DNA of 64,000 nt, from NCBI RefSeq assembly GCF_004010195.1, contig NC_057753.1, forward strand, positions 6,841,960 to 6,905,959, read 5' to 3'. The notes below the pieces were generated by a model. It searched no databases. It worked only from the letters and a program-made list of their open reading frames with translations, and had not been told where the DNA came from. Made by a program: the position numbers and the translations under genes. Below, one piece after another: positions 2,455-55,600 of the stretch (positions are counted from its first letter, which is position 1; every line of letters begins with the position of its first letter). The DNA comes from Chiloscyllium plagiosum. Lineage: Eukaryota.

Positions 2455-3682
2455 AAGGGATAGATAACATGGTTTTGTGAAGAGTAGGTCATGCCTCACA
2501 TACCTTATTGAGTTTTTTGAGAATGTTACCAAACAGGTGGATGAAGGTAAATCAGTTGATTTTCAGTAAGGTTCACCATGGTAGGCACAAAGTAAAGAGG
2601 GATAGAATTGATGGTGATTTAGTGGTTTGGATCAGAAATTGGTGAGCTGAAAGAAAACAGAGGATGGGCATTGCTTGGAATTGTTCATCCTGGAGTTTAG
2701 GTACTAGTGGCGTACCACAAGGATGTGTTTTGGGTCCACTGCTGTTTGTTGTTTTTTATAAACGATCTGGATGAGGGCGGAGAAGGATGGGTTAGTAAAT
2801 TTGCAGATGACACTAAGATCAGTAGACTAGTGATCAGTGCCAAAGCGTGTTGTAGATTACAGAGGGACATAGCTAAGCTGCAGAGCTGGGTTGAGAGGTG
2901 GCAAATGGAGTTTACTGCAGAAAAATGTGAAGTGACTTACTTTGTAAGGAGGAACAGGAATGCAGAGTATTTGGCTAATGATAAGATTCTTGGTAGTGTA
3001 GGCGAGCAGAGGGATCTCAGTATCCAGGTACATAGATCCCTGAAAGTTGCCACCCAGGTTGATAGGGTTGTTAAGAAGCCATACAGTGTGTTGGCTTTTA
3101 TTGGTAGAGGGATTGAGTTTCGGAGTAACGGGTTCATGCTGCAGTTGTACAAAACTCAGGGATGGCTGCACTTGGAGTATTGCATGCAGTTCTAGTCACC
3201 ACATTACAGGAAGGATGTAGAAGCTTTGGAAAAGGTTCAGATGAGATTTACTAGGCTGTTGCATGGTATGGATGGAAGGTCGTACGAGGAAAGGCTGAGG
3301 GACTTGATTGGAGAGAAGAAGGTTGGGAGGTGACTTAGTTGAGACATATCAGGTGATCAGAGTATTATATAGGGTGGACAGTGAGAGCCTTTTTCATTGG
3401 ATGGTGATGGATAGCATGAGAGGACATAGCTTTTAATTGAGGGATAATAGAATAGGACAGATGACAGAGGTAGTTTCTTCACTCACAAAGTATTAGAGGC
3501 GTGGAATGCACTGCCTGCAACAGTAGTAGACTCACCAACTTTAACGGCATTTAAAGTTTATTGGGTAGTCATATGGATAAAAATGGAAGTGTGTTCATTG
3601 GATTGGCTTCAGATTGTTTTCACAGGTCGACACAACATCGAGGGTCGAAGGGACTGTACTACACTGAAATGTTCTATGTTCT
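2455..3682 (+). mobile_element. CR1 LINE 3' fragment (RT to tail)
   Basis: WVSKFADDTKI and LEYCMQF motifs; gttctatgttct tail. Confidence 0.9.
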
Positions 3683-3699
3683 AACACTTCTCCGAGATT

Positions 3700-3990
3700 C
3701 AAAGCTGATGAGTCCATCATTTATCACAAGATGCTGGAGTCTATTATGACGGATGAGATAAACAAACATTTGCAAAGCATCAATCAGTTTGCACAAAGTC
3801 AACATTGGTTTATGAAAGGGAAACACTATTGACAAAACTATTGAAAGTTTTTGAGGATATAACTGGTAAACAAGGTACAGGAAAACCAATTGATCAGGGA
3901 GTTTGTATTTCCAGAATACTTTAATAACATCGCATGTAAGTGTGAGATTGCCAAATCAGAGCACATTAGTGGTAATATACTAGCATGGAA
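3700..3990 (+). mobile_element. Old CR1 RT relic
   Basis: Decayed copy of the SQHGFMKGKSCLTNLLEFFED-coding segment seen at 1273-1340. Confidence 0.6.
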
Positions 3991-25800: not shown

Positions 25801-26768
25801 TATAGAAACCGTCAGTTTCTGTCCAGTAAGTACTGCGAGTGCCCTGAACGTTTCTGTACTGTCTGATCAATATTTCACCTGGGTCTGGGTCTTTTAGCGA
25901 TGATTTGAATTTGATTTCCTCCAGTTACTGAGTCACTGACTGTTGAAGACATTCCATTTCACAGAACCTTCTCGTTGGAAACTCGAATTACATCAGGGAA
26001 AGAGGCACGATCTGGCTGTTAGTTACAACATAAACCTGAACCACAGTGAGAGGCGAATAGAATAGATTCTCATGTGTCATGCTTATAATTGTGAAACATG
26101 AGAAATAACAGCAGGCAGAGGAATTCAGGATTATTGAGAAAATGACTGAAGTGAAAAGGAAGTATTTCACCATGGTTGTGAGCAGTGTTGTCCAGACTCT
26201 GACACTTAGCAATGGAGTGGTTTGAAGCAGCTAGCAGATAGGAGTTTGTAGTGAGGCCAATGTCTTCTGTCTTGCCAATATTTAAATTTCTGCTCGCCCA
26301 GTTGAGATATCAGACGTGTCAGGAATGTGTGTGATTGGGAGGTGACATTGTTGATATCAACCTCCGAGTCCGGTCTTTCTGGGTGGTAGAAGTTGTTCGG
26401 TTCTGTCAAAGTTCTGATCAATGTCCCTGTCCGTCTCCTCCTGCAGAGACGAAACGCTAGTGTTGGCCCGGACTGAGTGGCAGATTCCCATCACTGAAGG
26501 ACAGCAGTCAACTAAATGGGTTTTTGTTACAATCCAGTAGGTTACACGGTCAATTTTTCCCAGTGTCAGCCCCACACATTACCAGATTCATTCAGCTCCA
26601 TTTCAGAATTGTTAATCGTGTTTTTTTTTGATGTGGGTTTTCTCTCACCCCTTTTCTCTTTCATAGATCAAGTCACAGGAAGCTGGAAGGTTTGCATCCA
26701 GTAACATTGCAACAGGATTGACAGAGTCATCCGTTTTATCTTAACCTGAACATCGACGGAGTTTGAAC

Positions 26769-28130
26769 ATGGAAGAGAAGAACACCAGTCCCAGTGCGGA
26801 GGGATCACGGGAAGGTGGGGATGGTGGAAAGGAATTGAGTCCCATGTCTGAGCTGGAATCTCATCAACACAGTCACACAGGGAAGAAGCCATTCATCTGC
26901 TCCCAGTGTGGGAAGGAATTCACTGAATTATCCAACCTCCTCAGCCACCAGCACGTCCACACTGGAGAGAAACCATTCAAATGTCCAGACTGTGGGAAGT
27001 GCTACAAATGTTCCAAGGACTTGGTGTCTCACCAACGTGTTCACACTGTAGAGAGACCGTTCAAGTGCTCTCACTGCGGAACTGGGTTCAGGTTGCCATC
27101 GCAACTGACTGTACACCAGCGGATTCACACCGGGGAGAGGCCGTTCATCTGCTCTGAGTGTGGGAAAGGATTCACTCGGTCGTCTGACCTGCTCAAACAC
27201 CAGCGGGGTCACACTGAGGAGAGACCGTTCCGGTGCTCCCACTGTGGGACTGGTTTCAAGCAATCGTACGATCTCACCGTGCACCAACGAATTCACACTG
27301 GGGAGAGGCCGTACTCCTGCTCCGAGTGCGGGAAGGACTTCACTCGTTTGTCCAATCTGCTCAGTCACCAACAAGTTCACACCGATGAGAAACCTTTTAA
27401 GTGTCCAGAGTGTGGGAAGGGCTATAAAAATTCATGGAAACTGAAGTCCCATCAACGTGTTCACTCTGACGAGAGACCGTTTCGATGCTCTGACTGTGGG
27501 ATGATGTTCAAGCGATCATTTCAACTCACTGTTCACCAGCGCATTCACACCGGTGATGGGTTATTCACCTGCTCCAAGTGTGGGAAGGGATTCACTCAGT
27601 TATCCAATCTCCAGTCACATCAGCTAGTTCATACCGATGAGAGGCCTTTTCAGTGCACGGACTGTGGAAAGAGTTTTAAAAGTTCTGCAGGACTGATCCG
27701 TCATCAACGTATTCACTCTGATGAGAAACCGTTCATGTGTTCTCAGTGCGGAGCGAGGTTCACACAGTCATATACTCTCACTGTGCACCAGCGAGTTCAC
27801 ACTGGGGAGAGGCCATTCACCTGCTCCGAGTGTGGGAAAGGATTCCGTCGAGCATCCAACCTACTGGAACATCAGCGGGTTCACGCCACGGAGAGACCTT
27901 TTAAATGTTCAGCCTGTGAGAAGAGCTTCAAATGTGCCCGGGACCTTATGTCCCATCAGTGTGCACCCGCTGAAGCGACACCCTTCAGATGCTCTCATTG
28001 CGCGCCTGAGTTGGAGCAGTCATCCCAGTTCTCTGTAGATCAGCGACTCCACACTGAGCAACAACTGTTTATCTGCTCCGAGTGTGGGAGGAGTTTCACT
28101 CCATCATCCAAATTGCTGACACACGAGTGA
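26769..28130 (+). CDS. Tandem C2H2 zinc-finger protein, 453 aa: 12 canonical and 3 degenerate fingers, no effector domain visible
   Basis: Uninterrupted ORF with TGE(K/R)P linkers; ATG at 26769 in an aacATGg context; polypyrimidine tract and AG acceptor at 26665-26666; AATAAA at 28510-28515. Confidence 0.9.
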
Positions 28131-29019: not shown

Positions 29020-29575
29020 CATAGAATCGCTACAGTGTGGAAACGGGCCCTTCGACCCAACAAGGTCCACATCGACCCTCCAAACAGTAACCCACCCGGA
29101 CCCAAACAGTAACCCACCCGGACCCAATCCGCCCACTCTATATTTACCCCTGACTAATGCACCTAACCTACACATCCCTGAACACTATGGGGCTATTTAG
29201 TACAGTCAATTCACCTCACCTGCGCATCTTTGGACTCTGGGAGGAAACCGGAGCACCTGGAGGAAACCCACGCAGACACAGGGAGAATGTACAAACTCCA
29301 CCCGGGTTCCTGCTGCTGTAATAAAAGCAAATTACTACGGATGCTGGAATCTGAAACCAAAAGAGAAAATGCTGGAAAATCTCAGCAGGGCTGGCAGCAT
29401 CTGTAAGGAGAGAAAAGGGCTGATGTTTCGAGTCGAACTGACCCTTTGTCAAAGCTTTGACAAAGGGTCAGTTAGACTCGCAAAGTCAGCTCTTTTCCCT
29501 CCTTACAGATGCTGCCAGACCTGCTGAGATTTTCCACCACCTGCTGCTGTAAGCAGTGCGAACCACTGAGCCACC
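29020..29575 (-). mobile_element. HE1-type SINE split by a palindromic PLE insertion
   Basis: SINE tail and core at 29020-29310; head resumes at 29553 (gcagtgcgaaccactgagccacc). Confidence 0.85.
29322..29539. mobile_element. Fold-back PLE-terminus element with variant hammerhead cores
   Basis: TSD CCTGCTGCTGTAA at 29309-29321 and 29540-29552; palindrome centred on AAGCTT at 29452-29457. Confidence 0.85.
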
Positions 29576-29584
29576 AAGCCCCCA

Positions 29585-33449: not shown

Positions 33450-35735
33450 AGTTATAGACCAACAGGTTTATTTGAAAACACTAACTTTTGGAGTGTTGCT
33501 TGTGCAGCAGGACCAGAAGATACAGAATTTATAGCAAATGTGTCACAGAGTTGTAATGATATAGTAAACAAACTTAGATTAAGTCTTGCATCTTTTAGGA
33601 TGGGAAATGTTTGCTTGGGCTCTCTACAATGTAAATTCGAGAACTCGCTTTTCACTCACATCCTCAAGGTGTCTTCAGTTTACCTAACAATTGGTGTTAT
33701 CTCAAGGTAAGTCATGCAAATTTATGGGGTGGATCTGTATCTGCAGAGCTGCGTTTTATTTTTTCCTCAAAAACTGCATAAATCCATGCAATATTCTGTA
33801 AGTCCCACTTTCGAAAATAAGACTGACTCAACATTGGAACAGATTTTAAGTTCACACTGTTAATATGTTGTCTGAGCTAAGATAATACCTGTTGTTATAT
33901 GAACTGAAGCCAACTTTGTTGGTAGACCGACAGGAGACTGGAGAACACAGCAGACCAGGTAGCATCAGGAGGTGGAGAAGGTGACAGTTTTGGTGGTAGC
34001 CCTTCTGCAGGATTGGGTGTGGGGGGAGCTGTGGATAAAGGAGGTGGTGAGGTGAGGATGGGTAAAGATGGGTATAGGGTATGACCTGGTTGGTTAATGG
34101 GAGGAGTGAATCTGGTTGGTGGCAGGGAAGAGGGGATGACGTTGGAGAGGGATTCGGGGGATGCGGAGGGACATTATATGATTTGGAGGTACCGGTGTTG
34201 GACTCGGGTGGACAAAGTTAAACATCACACAACACCAGGTTATAGTCCAACAGGTTATTTGGAAAACTTTTGGAATGCTGCTCCTTTGTCAGGTAGCTAG
34301 TGTGGCAGATAGGCACAGAACTAGCTATCTGCCGAAGAAGCAGTGCTTCAAAAGCTTGTACCTGGTGTTGTGTGGTTTTCAACACAATAGAAAGAAAATG
34401 TGGTGTTGGCAGACTAAGCGTGCATGGCTGTTCCAATTAATTGGAGTGAATAAGGGGTGAGGCTGAATTTCAGATGGACAAGTCAGGAGATGTTTTCCTG
34501 GAAAATCATGATGTGGAGGTGCCAGTGTTGGACTGGGGTGGACAAAGTCAGAAGTCATATAACACCAGGTTGAGTTCTGTGGGCTGTAGACTGCCAAGGC
34601 AGAATATTAAGACCCACACAACACCAGGTTATGGTCCAACAGGTTTATCTGGAAGCATTAGCTTTAAGAGTGCTGCTCCTTCATTGGGTGGTTGTGGAGA
34701 ATAAGATTTTAAGGCATAGAATTTATAGCAGAAGTTTACAGTGTGATGTAACTGAAATTATACATTGAAAAAGATCCGGATTGTGTGTTAAGTCTCTCAT
34801 CTTTTAGAATGACCATGTTGGTTTCAGTTGTTTCATATTGTAAATTGCAAAACGTTTTTAAAAAGTTACATTCTCAAGTGCACTTTAACAATTGGTGTCT
34901 TGTCGGCTCAGATAAGGTATTGAAGGTGTTAACTCCCTGTGAGGCTGTCTGTGCCACAATGGTCAGACTGATTCTAACCTAAAAAACAGATTTACAGAAT
35001 ATTACATGGATTTATCCAGTTTTTGAGCAAAATAAAATGTAATTCTGCAAGTACAAATTCACCCCACAAACTTTTATGTGTATGTTTGCATGTGTTTTTG
35101 GTGGGTGGGGGGAGGTAGAGGGGTTATGAGTGTCTGTTAGAGGTGTGTGTGAGTGTAAAGGGATATAAGGCTGTGTGTGGGAGTCTATGAGAGAGGGTGT
35201 GCGTCTCAAATTCCAAATAACCTCCCTTCCCAGTCCCTCCCCCTCCCTTCCACTCCTCCCAGCCACCAACCAGGTCTATTCCTCCCATTGCTGGAAATGT
35301 GTTGCTGGAAAAGTGCAGCAGGTCAGCCAGCATCCAGGGAACAGGAGAATCGATGTTTCGGGCATAAGCCCTTCTTCAGGAAGGCTTATGTCCGAAACGT
35401 TGATTCTCCTGTTCCCTGGATGTTGCCTGACCTGCTGCGCATTTCCAGCTCTGATCTCCAGCATCTGCAGACCTCACTTTCTCCTCAAATATTCCTTCCA
35501 TTGACCAACCAGGTTGTACCCTCTGCCTGTCTTCACATGTCTCCGCCTCATCACCCTGACCCTGCCACCCTGTTTATCCCCCCAACCCCACCCCTCCCCA
35601 CCCAGTCCTGAAGAAGGGATACACCCAAAATATTTTCTTCTTTACTTCCTGATTCCACGTGGGTTGCTGTGTTCCTCCAGCCTCCTGTGTCTATTTTGGA
35701 TTCCAGCATCAGCAGTTTTGTTTTGTGTCTAGCCA
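33450..35735. mobile_element. Pile-up of PLE terminal-repeat fragments from several families
   Basis: Repeated acacaacaccaggttatagtccaacagg motif (same family as 59760-62270), plus a second family at 33920-34170 and 35205-35735. Confidence 0.75.
35291..35489. mobile_element. Fold-back PLE-terminus element nested in another PLE terminus
   Basis: TSD TATTCCT(C/T)CCATTG at 35277-35290 and 35490-35503. Confidence 0.85.
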
Positions 35736-45729: not shown

Positions 45730-45962
45730 GAGCTGAAAATGTGTTGCTGGAAAAGCGCAGCAGGTCAGGCAGCATCCAGGGAACAGGAGAATCGACGTTT
45801 CGGGCATAAGCCCTTCTTCAGGAAGCCCTTCCTCATTCCTGAAGAAGGGCTTATGCCCGAAACGTCGATTCTCCTGTTCCCTGGATGCTGCCTGACCTGC
45901 TGCGCTTTTCCAGCAACACATTTTCAGCTCTGATCTCCAGCATCTGCAGACCTCACTTTCTC
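45730..45962. mobile_element. Young fold-back PLE-terminus element with perfect 95-bp inverted arms
   Basis: Arms 45730-45824 and 45836-45930; TSD CCCAAAGATAGATGA at 45717-45731 and 45963-45977. Confidence 0.92.
45835..45870 (+). ncRNA. Minimal type-I hammerhead ribozyme motif (mirror copy on the minus strand at ~45790-45825)
   Basis: CUGAAGA-A-GGGC-UUAU-GCCC-GAAAC-GUC; predicted cut after 45866. Confidence 0.75.
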
Positions 45963-46553
45963 CCCAAAGATAGATGATGAAGACATCTGATAAACATCAT
46001 GAGATTATGGGAGGACCTAGGGCAGTCCGTCGAGTTGCCATCATTGATCATGGATTGTATGTACAGCTTAGGGGAATGTGGCTAACAATGACATCAATGT
46101 TGCATGTCATTATTATAACGAAGGGTATAAAAATATATTTCACTGGGGAGCTCAGTGGCTTTCCGATCTGAGCTGTGATTAAGAGGGCAATTAAGCCCCA
46201 TGTGAAAGGCAGATTTGGGGTGTCTCTGGCTTCTCCCACAAATGTGGCAATAGAACTCTAAATAAAGGCCACTTTGGCGAAGAAACGCAGAACTTAAGAC
46301 TCGTCTTTGGTAGGCAAATCAAAGGTAAATCTAAGATTACAAAGAGGTATTGGTCAACGAGGTGAGGAGTGGGAGAGGGTTTAATTTTGTTAAGTGTGAG
46401 TTAAGGATATAAAGATAGAACATACAAATTATTAGTAGGGCCTGGATAGTGTTGTATAATAGAGAGACCTAGGGGTTCAGGTACATAATTCTTTGTAGTT
46501 TGTATCACAGCTGGTTAAGAAGGGGTTTAGTATGCTTGCCTTCATTGTTCAGT

Positions 46554-46783
46554 GTTGAAACTTTATTGCTGGAACAGCACAGCAGGTCAGGCAGCATCCA
46601 GGGAACAGGAGATTCGACGTTTCGGGCACAGGCCCTTCTTCAGGAAGCCCTTCCTCATTCCTGAAGAAGGGCTTATGCCCGAAACGTCGAATCTCCTGTT
46701 CCCTGGATGCTGCCTGACCTGCTGTGCTGTTCCAGCAATAAAGTTTCAACTTTGATCTCCAGCATCTGCAGACCTCACTTTCT
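46554..46783. mobile_element. Young fold-back PLE-terminus element with 93-bp arms
   Basis: Arms 46554-46646 and 46658-46750; TSD CCTTCATTGTTCAGT at 46539-46553 and 46784-46798. Confidence 0.92.
46657..46692 (+). ncRNA. Minimal type-I hammerhead ribozyme motif
   Basis: AUUC-CUGAAGA-A-GGGCUUAUGCCC-GAAAC-GUC-GAAU; 4-bp helix I. Confidence 0.8.
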
Positions 46784-48229
46784 CCTTCATTGTTCAGTCC
46801 CTTGAGTACAAGAGTTGGGAAGTCCTGTTGCGGTTGCAGAGGACATTGCTGAGGCTTCTTCTGGAGTACTGTGTGCAGTTCCAGTCTCCTGTTGAAGAAA
46901 TGATATTGTTCAACTGGAGAGGGTTGAGAAAAGATTTTGCGGCATGTTGCCTGGAGTAGACTGAAAAGGCTGGATTTTTTTTTTCCACTGGAGCGTAGGA
47001 GGTTGAGGGGTGACCAAATTGATGTTTATAAAATGAGGGGAATAGATTAAGTGAGTAACAAAAGTCTTTTCCCTTGGGTGGGTGACTTCAAAACTAGGGA
47101 AGCACATTTTTAAGGCGAGAGGAAATATTTTAAAAAGGAAAGGAAGGGTATTTTTTTTTAAACAAGGTGATTCATGTGTGAAATGTGAGGGAGAAGTGGA
47201 TGTATGCCCGGTCGTAATGTTTATAAAAGACATGTTGATAAATTTACACCAATGGGAAAGTTTTGGAGCTGTATGGGCCAAAAGCAGGCAGATGGGACCA
47301 GTTTAGTTTGGGAACATGGTCGGCGTGGGCTGGTTGGACCGAAGGGTCTGTTTCATGCTGTATGACTGTGAGAGAGTACAGCTGCAATGGGCTGAATGGA
47401 CCTCAACCCCAGTGCTCTGTGATACTGTTCCATTCACTGTGAATGGTGAAGCTCATCCCAGGGCAGGGAGAGAGAGGATCCCATCACTTACCTCACAATG
47501 GGGCCCAGCTGATTGACAGGTGTATGCATGCACAGGTTTCCTAATGCAAGGGGAGTGCTGCTGGGGTTTGAGGATTCGAATGCAGCCAATTTAAACCAAG
47601 GTAAATGATTGTCATTTCGAGGTTTCTGCTTTGGACTGACAGTACATTTTCGTGAACTTCTTTTGCAGGATATTAATTGAGAATAATTTGCACTCCAGGA
47701 TCTCAAAACACGTTCTGACAGAGTCAGCAGAGCCATCAGGACCTGAATATTATTGGCGTTTACTGTGGAAGGAAAAAGGTTTGTCTATGGGAAAAATATT
47801 TCCAAAATGGTTGTAATTCAAAACACAGCAAGTTGTTCAGGCTCCTGTGTCTGGGCCCTGCAGCTGAGGAAGGAGATATTGCCTTGACGGGGGCCGGGGC
47901 ACAGATTTATACAGGTAACACCTCATCTCTTGGGACAAACTGTTATATTTACTCCCAGTCTCACACTTCACGATTAGAGCCTATAAGTTTCTCATTGTCT
48001 AAAGAGCTGCAAATTCCCATTTTTAAATTTGTTATGAATTTGCAATCCAGCACCCCTTCTGCTGGGATGTTCCAGATCCCGACAACTCTCTGTTGATCCA
48101 GAAACTGCAGAATTCTGTGTGAAGTCTGGAGGGTTATTAAGGGTTATATTGAGAAATGGGAGACTCTTCCCCGAGCTCCCATGGAGCTTCACTGCACGAG
48201 TCAGAGTGGTCCCTGTGAGTGCTGCTTCG

Positions 48230-54469: not shown

Positions 54470-55600
54470 TCAATGGCACCTTGATCAGATGTGCCAATGG
54501 GCTAAGGAATGGTTGATGGAGTTTAGATTGGATAGATTTGAGCTATTACATTTTGCTAAGGCAAACCAGGTAGGAATTATACAGTCAATGGGAAGGCCAT
54601 GGGCAGTGTTGCTGAATAAAGAGACCGAGGGCAGCAGCTGCGTATTTCATTGTAAGTAGATTTGCAGGTAGACAGGGTAGTGAAGAAGGCGTTTGGCACA
54701 CTTGCCTTCATTTGTCAGTGCACTGAGTATAGCAGTTGGGGTGTTTTGTCGCAGCTCTAATAGACATTGGTCAGGCCTGTTTTAGAATACTGCTTTAAAT
54801 TCTGGTCTCCTTGCTATGGAAAAGATGTTGTTAAACATGTGAGGGTGCAAAAATAATTCACAAGGGTGTTGACAGGATTGGAGTGTTTGAGATATTGGAA
54901 GAGGCTTGGGCAATTTTTTCTCTGGAATGTCGGAGGCTGCTTTATAGAGGTTTATATGATCATGAGGGCAATTGATAGGGTGAATAGCCAAGGTCTTTTT
55001 TATGGGGTAGGACTCCAAAACGAGTGGGTATAGGTTTGATGCCATTCCTGAAGAAGGGCTTATGCCCGAAATGTCGATTCTCCTGTTCCTTGGATGCTGC
55101 CTGACCTGCTGCGCTTTTCCAGCAACACATTTTCAGATCTGATCTCCAGCATCTGCAGTCCTCAGTTTCTCCTTGAAGATTTTAACCTACTGCGACTCCT
55201 CTTGCAAGGATGCCTTCCTTGAAGAAGCTGTCTTCCTCCCTCTCCTGAAGAAGGGCTTATGCCCGAAACGTCGATCCTCCTGTTCCTTGGATGCTGCCTT
55301 ACCTGCTGCACTTTTCCAGCAACACATTTTCAGCAGAGGTTTAATGTGACAAGGGTAAGATTTGAAAGATTTGACCTCGGGCAACTTTTTCATGCAGAAG
55401 GTGGAACCAGATGCCAGAGGAGTTGGTGGAAGTGGATACAATTACAACATTTAAAAGGCATCTGGCTGGGTAGATGAATAGGAAAGTTTTAGAGGGATAT
55501 GTGCGAAATGCTGGCAATTCGGACTAGATTAGTTTAGGATATCTGTTGGCACAGAAAAGTTGGACTGAGAATCTGTTTCCATGCTGTATAACTCTTACTA
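54470..55600 (+). mobile_element. CR1 3' fragment interrupted by a tandem PLE terminus
   Basis: RT C-terminus and 3' UTR. Confidence 0.8.
55042..55336 (+). mobile_element. Direct-tandem PLE termini with two hammerhead motifs 197 nt apart
   Basis: CTGAAGA at 55048 and 55245; TSD AGGTTT(G/A)ATG at 55032-55041 and 55337-55346. Confidence 0.85.

What the first reader, a model, noticed from the sequence alone, without database searches (positions are those of the whole stretch)
29420..29491. Hammerhead variant with a compensatory U3-A8 core pair in both arms of a palindrome
Seen: the core reads UUGACAA (29457-29463, identical on the minus strand) instead of CUGANGA, i.e. C3>U together with G8>A, with helix II GGGUC/GACUC and a 4-bp helix I AGCU/AGCU. 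Established: positions 3 and 8 form a Watson-Crick pair in the active hammerhead and U3-A8 is a tolerated compensatory variant. Inference: the source family was selected for ribozyme function, and standard CUGANGA searches would miss it. This copy has decayed in the GAAAC-GUC part (GCAAAGUC on +, GAAACAUC on -).
Basis: partly seen in the sequence, partly recalled or inferred. Interest (0 to 1): 0.75.

Follow-up and report, generated by a model that had tools for sequence, protein, structure and literature searches.

The report
Penelope stub with U3-A8 hammerhead
The swapped core letters are real and are the normal form in a family of about two thousand or more copies of a Penelope-like jumping gene, but this hammerhead variant was published for such elements in 2014, and this copy is a decayed, likely inert end-fragment.

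Summary
The motif is there as described. [quoted passage not shown] U3-A8 is family-wide: 94 of the first 100 of 1,668 exact matches; only 16 of 1,668 have G8. Two related families keep C3-G8, and helix I covaries across families, so the lineage was likely selected for hammerhead structure. Catalysis was not tested. Natural U3-A8 hammerheads (2011), U3-A8 minimal hammerheads in PLEs (2014) and inverted ends with a one-sided tail are all published. This copy is likely inert: both arms are damaged, the motifs sit on opposite strands, and a read-through RNA folds into one long hairpin. Side result: 60 of 96 sampled arms start within 10 nt upstream of the core (30 exactly at helix I, 31 nt after a TATA box); 1 of 96 starts at the predicted cut site. 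The RNA likely begins with the ribozyme and is copied uncut. The scan has noted this variant and this start-site pattern before, in this genome and in others.

The parts
29309..29321 (+). left target-site duplication, 13 bp
   Evidence: (family D5)
29321..29356 (-). about 36-nt PLE 'tail', present on this arm only
   Evidence: 35 of 96 sampled arms have it, 61 do not
29322..29454 (-). left arm: PLE terminal repeat fragment from the helix I start through the tail
29418..29456 (-). minimal type I hammerhead, U3-A8 core at 29452-29446; decayed (G16.2>A, helix I 3' strand AGCC)
29453..29491 (+). minimal type I hammerhead, U3-A8 core at 29457-29463; decayed (A13>C, C15.2>A); predicted cut site after 29487
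29453..29456 (.). self-complementary AGCT at the fold-back centre: the 5' strand of helix I and the commonest 5' boundary of the family (likely transcription start)
29455..29539 (+). right arm: same terminal repeat fragment, without tail
29540..29552 (+). right target-site duplication, 13 bp

Best explanation
The palindrome is a short head-to-head insertion of the end of a Penelope-like retroelement whose family carries a hammerhead-shaped motif with U3-A8 in place of C3-G8, likely a compensatory change fixed once in the source element, and this decayed copy is likely inert. Shown: family membership, link to RT and GIY-YIG frames, target duplication, one-sided tail, family-wide U3-A8, sharp 5' boundary at helix I. 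Inferred: the source element is transcribed from a TATA promoter in the upstream repeat, starting at the first base of helix I. The element's RT starts at one of two internal sites (with or without tail, as shown for the Anolis PLE), copies about 100-140 nt to the 5' end of the uncut RNA, and then jumps to target DNA, another RNA or a second short cDNA. The last outcome gives the fold-back seen here. From established knowledge: such minimal hammerheads have no helix III loop and would cut only as dimers through the self-complementary ACGU, slowly or with protein help. Whether the U3-A8 version cuts was not tested.
For: Family size: 1,668 exact core matches and 2,447 exact downstream-anchor matches, 0 in reversed controls. 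Core: U3-A8 in 94 of the first 100 listed; G8 in 16 of 1,668, C3-G8 in 4; 51 of 57 arms with intact AGCT read UUGACAA. Mismatched intermediates with intact AGCT are rare: 17 C3-A8 and 9 U3-G8. Parent: L111 has TATA box, U3-A8 motif, tail, RT-like frames and a 3' frame hitting GIY-YIG (E 3.4e-4, just under Pfam's cut-off); L106 has an RT frame with GTRMGPSYA and YRYIDD followed by a 3' repeat with TATA box and the same core. Relatives: two C3-G8 families with the same helix II fall outside a supported clade of the focal family (99/97). Helix I and pair 3-8 over 9 hand-picked rows: 93% of cells paired, 4 of 5 pairs with changes on both sides. An intact copy folds with helix II at about 0.99 and the middle pairs of helix I at about 0.8-0.9. 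Boundaries: 60 of 96 arms start at -10..-1, 30 exactly at -4, 1 at the cut site. A TATA-like word lies at -29 to -31 in 7 of 8 copies examined from three families. Window copy folds as one hairpin of -78.2 kcal/mol. Literature: PMC4209133 (parts 1-2 of 4 read), PMC11167929 (parts 1-2 of 4 read), PMC8557442 and PMC3088659 (passages).
Against: No activity data. The 3-8 swap is one historical event, so copy counts do not multiply the evidence. The Pfam hits are weak (RVT_1 E 0.009; 3 of 5 fragments had no hit) and no intact frame was found in the 8 long loci read. The RNA reads laid showed no place where many molecules begin. The base before the start is G in 22 of 72 arms (p 0.013 against flank composition), but C is as frequent (23), so a cap signature is not shown. 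The start site also looks like a splice acceptor (pyrimidine tract, then AG).
Confidence: 0.87

Rival explanations
1. The U3-A8 pair is a chance double substitution in a motif that had already lost function in this family; the element spreads without cutting.
For: Only 1 of 96 arms begins at the predicted cut site. In the Anolis PLE, ribozyme-dead mutants insert normally in vitro (PMC11167929), and hammerhead-less PLE clades proliferate (PMC8557442). N7 is C here, so an ancestral C7-G8 would have been a mutable CpG.
Against: Every other core position and both helices are intact in the family majority, and the two changes fall exactly on the one Watson-Crick pair of the core. A canonical C3-G8 family in the same genome is equally poor in cut-site starts (3 of 76 by eye; Fisher p 0.32), so this absence does not single out U3-A8. 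No sizeable mismatched subfamily was found.
Confidence: 0.12
2. The palindrome is itself a self-spreading non-autonomous hairpin element, or retrozyme, in which the two ribozymes act together.
For: At least 40 near-identical full palindromes at about 95% identity. Arms share private variants slightly more often than chance: 2 non-CpG shared against about 0.15 expected, in 29 copies.
Against: The top hits were selected for being this palindrome. In samples chosen without that bias only 15 of 114 arms with intact AGCT are exact fold-backs, 27 have the native upstream and 72 have other junctions; fold-back points and spacers vary. The two motifs are on opposite strands, so no transcript holds both, and a read-through RNA pairs them away. 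Shared variants also fit two cDNAs from one source element.
Confidence: 0.04
3. The sharp 5' boundary marks a splice acceptor, as in Drosophila virilis Penelope, where an intron ends at helix I, and not the transcription start.
For: The native upstream is a pyrimidine tract ending in AG. PMC4209133 reports the D. virilis intron end at the 5' end of helix I.
Against: The peak keeps the AG (30 arms at -4 against 12 at -2), often joined directly to the target duplication with no upstream exon. The TATA-like word keeps its distance of 29-31 nt in families with different spacers, and one relative has TCAGTT, an initiator-like word (label recalled), at the same position.
Confidence: 0.15

Closest known systems
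Minimal type I hammerheads (min-HHR) in PLE terminal repeats, including the U3-A8 variant of Schistosoma mansoni Cercyon elements (PMC4209133; parts 1-2 of 4 read, supplements not read)
   Same: No helix III loop, palindromic 15-16 positions, extra base between 9 and 10.1, G10.1-C11.1, short helix I, U3-A8 core (about 1,300 hits there), copies on opposite strands close together, location in PLE repeats.
   Different: A vertebrate host, helix II of 5 bp rather than 7-8, and a likely independent origin of U3-A8 from C3-G8 relatives (independence from the fluke elements was not tested by a tree).
Natural U3-A8 hammerheads (PMC3088659, passages read)
   Same: Compensatory U3-A8 core pair seen in nature and stated to be active in vitro.
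   Different: Whether those examples include a minimal, dimer-dependent motif like this one was not checked.
C-terminal-endonuclease PLEs of Neptune/Nematis type and their insertion structure (PMC8557442, passages; PMC11167929, parts 1-2 of 4)
   Same: RT followed by GIY-YIG, partial tandems, inverted truncated copy, 30-40 bp tail on one end, uncut RNA as template.
   Different: In the Anolis element the ORF starts in stem II. D. virilis Penelope has a TATA-less internal promoter and an intron (PMC2377424, passages). Here a TATA box lies 31 nt before helix I.

Membership tests
PLE minimal hammerhead (min-HHR) | core N3-UGA-N-N8-A ... GAAA with a Watson-Crick 3-8 pair | tested here: met
   U3-A8 in 94 of 100 listed; intact GAAAC in the family majority. 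The window's plus arm has A13>C.
PLE minimal hammerhead (min-HHR) | helix I and helix II that can form and covary | tested here: met
   (helix I counted; helix II judged by folding and by eye)
PLE minimal hammerhead (min-HHR) | no helix III loop, palindromic 15.1-16.1 allowing a dimer | tested here: met
   ACGU in the family majority; broken in both arms of the window copy
PLE minimal hammerhead (min-HHR) | self-cleavage as a dimer or with protein help | not testable with these tools
   needs an assay
Endonuclease-positive Penelope-like element | one ORF with RT followed by GIY-YIG | tested here: met
   in decayed long copies L106, L108, L111; hits are weak and no intact frame was found
Endonuclease-positive Penelope-like element | partial tandem or inverted terminal repeats with a 30-40 bp tail on one side | tested here: met
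Neptune/Nematis clades | CX2-5CxxC zinc-finger linker between RT and endonuclease | tested here: inconclusive
   L111 shows the spacing but has a stop at one expected cysteine; no RT tree was built
Non-LTR retrozyme | head-to-tail tandem units, each with a hammerhead on the same strand | tested here: not met
   window copy is head-to-head, with the motifs on opposite strands
Rfam hammerhead families | match at gathering threshold | tested here: not met
   0 matches in the window; the canonical-core minimal motifs in the window are missed too

The most novel reading that the evidence does not exclude
In these PLEs the hammerhead is the first 39 nt of a capped RNA. Dimer-dependent cleavage would remove a 35-nt capped leader and take that RNA out of the retrotransposition pool, a concentration-dependent brake rather than a step that makes unit-length or circular templates. 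The need for that brake would explain why the 3-8 pair was restored as U3-A8.
Probability: 0.2. Interest if true: 0.55.

Novelty: new member of a known kind. Interest (0 to 1): 0.17.

Why it matters
As a ribozyme variant it adds only a vertebrate example of a published form, and a reminder that CUGANGA descriptors undercount. The useful by-product is that thousands of truncated copies map the element's RNA ends: they point to a start at helix I and to uncut RNA as template. That gives a direct test of the open question of what PLE hammerheads do, with natural C3-G8 and U3-A8 versions in one genome.

Tried and rejected
Rfam scan: no match. Run search: no RNA holder listed. Reads and contigs of 4 runs laid on L111 at 85% likeness gave no pile of starts or ends; one run had no reads, the other raw run is a single-cell polyA library, and most laid reads come from sister families, so this says nothing on start or cut sites. 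Expression of the window copy itself was not examined. Cap-templated G at the 5' junction: weak and matched by C, not claimed. A CpG-driven route to A8 could not be settled: the closest relative with a 5-nt loop has U7, and only 2 true C3-G8 copies lie inside the focal family (L321, L328); 2 of the 4 C3-G8 matches are junction products. Most C3-A8 matches without an AGCT requirement are likely junction products too (estimate). Lack of cut-site starts as a sign that U3-A8 is dead: rejected, the C3-G8 control looks the same. Tree: row L057 was entered in the wrong orientation and is meaningless, L329 duplicates L307, truncated copies carry flank sequence, and the bootstrap had not settled; only the two starred splits are used. 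Paper searches with no hit: hammerhead ribozyme + C3U + G8A, hammerhead + U3A8, Penelope-like + hammerhead + transcription start + TATA. 'U3-A8' gave only PMC4209133; shark + Penelope + hammerhead ribozyme gave one review, listing seen only. Lunse et al. (RNA Biol, dimer cleavage of PLE hammerheads) is not held and may already contain shark or U3-A8 examples, as may the unread supplements of PMC4209133.

Full report
Observation. The coordinates and letters are right. Plus strand: helix I 5' strand AGCU 29453-29456, core UUGACAA 29457-29463, one extra A, helix II GGGUC/GACUC with a 5-nt loop, GCAAAGUC, AGCU. The minus strand has the same core, GAAACAUC, and AGCC in place of AGCU, so its helix I is one pair short. 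The two motifs are the arms of an 85-bp inverted repeat without spacer. A 13-bp direct repeat flanks the insertion (29309-29321 and 29540-29552), and the left arm runs further, with a 36-nt end that the right arm lacks. Rfam has no match in the window.

Family. The window lies in a 3.56-Gb genome; from its repeats I take it to be a cartilaginous fish, which is recall and not a tool result. A 28-nt pattern that leaves positions 3, 7 and 8 open has 1,668 exact matches and the reversed control 0. Of the first 100 listed, 92 read UUGACAA, 2 UUGAUAA and 6 CUGACAA. Only 16 of 1,668 have G8 and 4 have C3-G8; two of these four are junction products. With AGCT required in front, 17 focal-family copies have C3-A8 and 9 have U3-G8, levels expected from single substitutions after insertion. 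Among 57 arms picked by a downstream anchor and with intact AGCT, 51 read UUGACAA. The window arms differ from the family majority at 5 and 4 of 84 positions. U3-A8 therefore belongs to the source element.

Parent element. Copies that continue past the tail (28 matches) lead into a decayed ORF. Of 8 long loci read, L106 has an RT frame with GTRMGPSYA and YRYIDD and then a 3' repeat with TATA box and U3-A8 core. L111 has TATA box, core and tail at its 5' end and a 3' frame that hits GIY-YIG at E 3.4e-4. A fragment of L108 hits RVT_1 at E 0.009; three other fragments had no Pfam hit. The linker has the spacing of the Neptune/Nematis zinc finger with a stop at one cysteine. Inverted truncated copies with a 30-40 bp tail on one side are the described insertion form of PLEs (PMC8557442 passages), and the tail is the distance between two internal RT start sites in the Anolis element (PMC11167929). 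Here 35 of 96 arms have the tail.

Was the motif selected? Copies decay neutrally, so the evidence must come from comparing families. With the same helix II, U3 goes with A8 in 97 of the first 100 of 1,806 matches and C3 with G8 in 81 of the first 100 of 1,189. This reflects family structure, not many events. Two C3-G8 families lie outside a supported clade holding the focal family (one row was misoriented and is ignored, support is rough), so U3-A8 is likely derived. Over 9 hand-picked rows from about five families, helix I and pair 3-8 are 93% paired with double changes in 4 of 5 pairs, well above the slid controls; the rows are related, so this is support and not a probability. An intact copy read from AGCT folds with both helices. 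ACGU at 15.1-16.1 allows the dimer helix III described for minimal hammerheads. Against: PLEs can insert without cutting or without a hammerhead.

This copy. A13>C and C15.2>A on the plus arm and G16.2>A on the minus arm damage the core or helix III. The motifs are on opposite strands, so one RNA cannot hold both, and a read-through RNA folds as a single hairpin of -78.2 kcal/mol (z -16). It is likely inert. The palindrome is not the unit of spread: among 114 arms with intact AGCT only 15 are exact fold-backs, 27 continue into the native upstream and 72 have other junctions (a few arms occur twice through overlapping loci).

Where the RNA starts. I took 96 of the 100 listed places of an anchor downstream of the cut site (2,447 matches; all on contig C1). 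Boundaries: 60 at -10..-1 relative to U3 (30 exactly at -4, the A of AGCT), 15 in native upstream (at least two look like alignment artefacts), 16 inside the ribozyme, 1 at the predicted cut site, 4 further down. The native upstream has TATAAATA 31 nt before that A, and two C3-G8 relatives keep a TATA-like word at -29 to -31 with different spacers (7 of 8 copies examined). The simplest reading is a transcription start at the first base of helix I with uncut RNA as template, matching the in vitro result for the Anolis element. A splice acceptor is the rival (pyrimidine tract plus AG; precedent in D. virilis), but the peak keeps the AG and often joins the target directly. A canonical C3-G8 family shows the same pattern, with 3 of 76 arms at the cut site by eye (Fisher p 0.32). 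So the lack of cut ends does not mark U3-A8 as dead. One earlier scan note reported a second peak at the cut site in another genome; I do not see one here. RNA data were uninformative. D. virilis Penelope has a TATA-less internal promoter (PMC2377424 passages); a search for a published TATA start at a PLE hammerhead found nothing.

Known status. PMC4209133 describes minimal hammerheads in PLE repeats, the U3-A8 variant missed by the standard descriptor (about 1,300 hits in S. mansoni), copies on opposite strands 100-700 bp apart, and low dimer activity. PMC3088659 reports natural U3-A8 covariation and cites in vitro activity. The scan has found this variant in this genome and in others. Verdict: a real feature, a new member of a known kind, low interest; the start-site mapping is the only lead worth an experiment.

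Noticed in passing
window 26745-28130 (+): 461-aa stop-free frame of tandem C2H2 zinc fingers with 84-bp periodicity; the palindrome lies about 1.2 kb downstream and could fall in its 3' UTR.
   Followed up: no
window about 29140-29308 and 29553-29580: The insertion splits an older repeat that I recall as a shark-type tRNA-derived SINE; the label comes from no call.
   Followed up: no
window 35290-35520, 45730-45990, 46560-46800, 55040-55350: Fold-back or tandem stubs of a much larger PLE family with a canonical CUGAAGA core; 23,774 exact anchor matches in the genome. Its copies also start near helix I.
   Followed up: partly
window 6512, 9943, 38359, 53318, 56710: Further hammerhead-like motifs of other repeat families, with different helix I and helix II sequences.
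   Followed up: partly
L105, L107, L108, L109, L110, L112: Partial tandems in which the ORF breaks off at variable points and is followed directly by AGCT plus the hammerhead, as expected if RT jumps templates at the RNA 5' end. Similar joints appear in contigs of a public run.
   Followed up: partly
L106, oriented 3200-3800: A short tandem array has expanded inside the element between RT and the 3' repeat, next to an assembly gap.
   Followed up: no
L065: A chimera whose C3-G8 core comes from another PLE family joined at a shared short word.
   Followed up: partly
L012, L018, L023: Both arms of a palindrome share the same private substitution, hinting at a common source RNA or conversion between arms.
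   Followed up: partly
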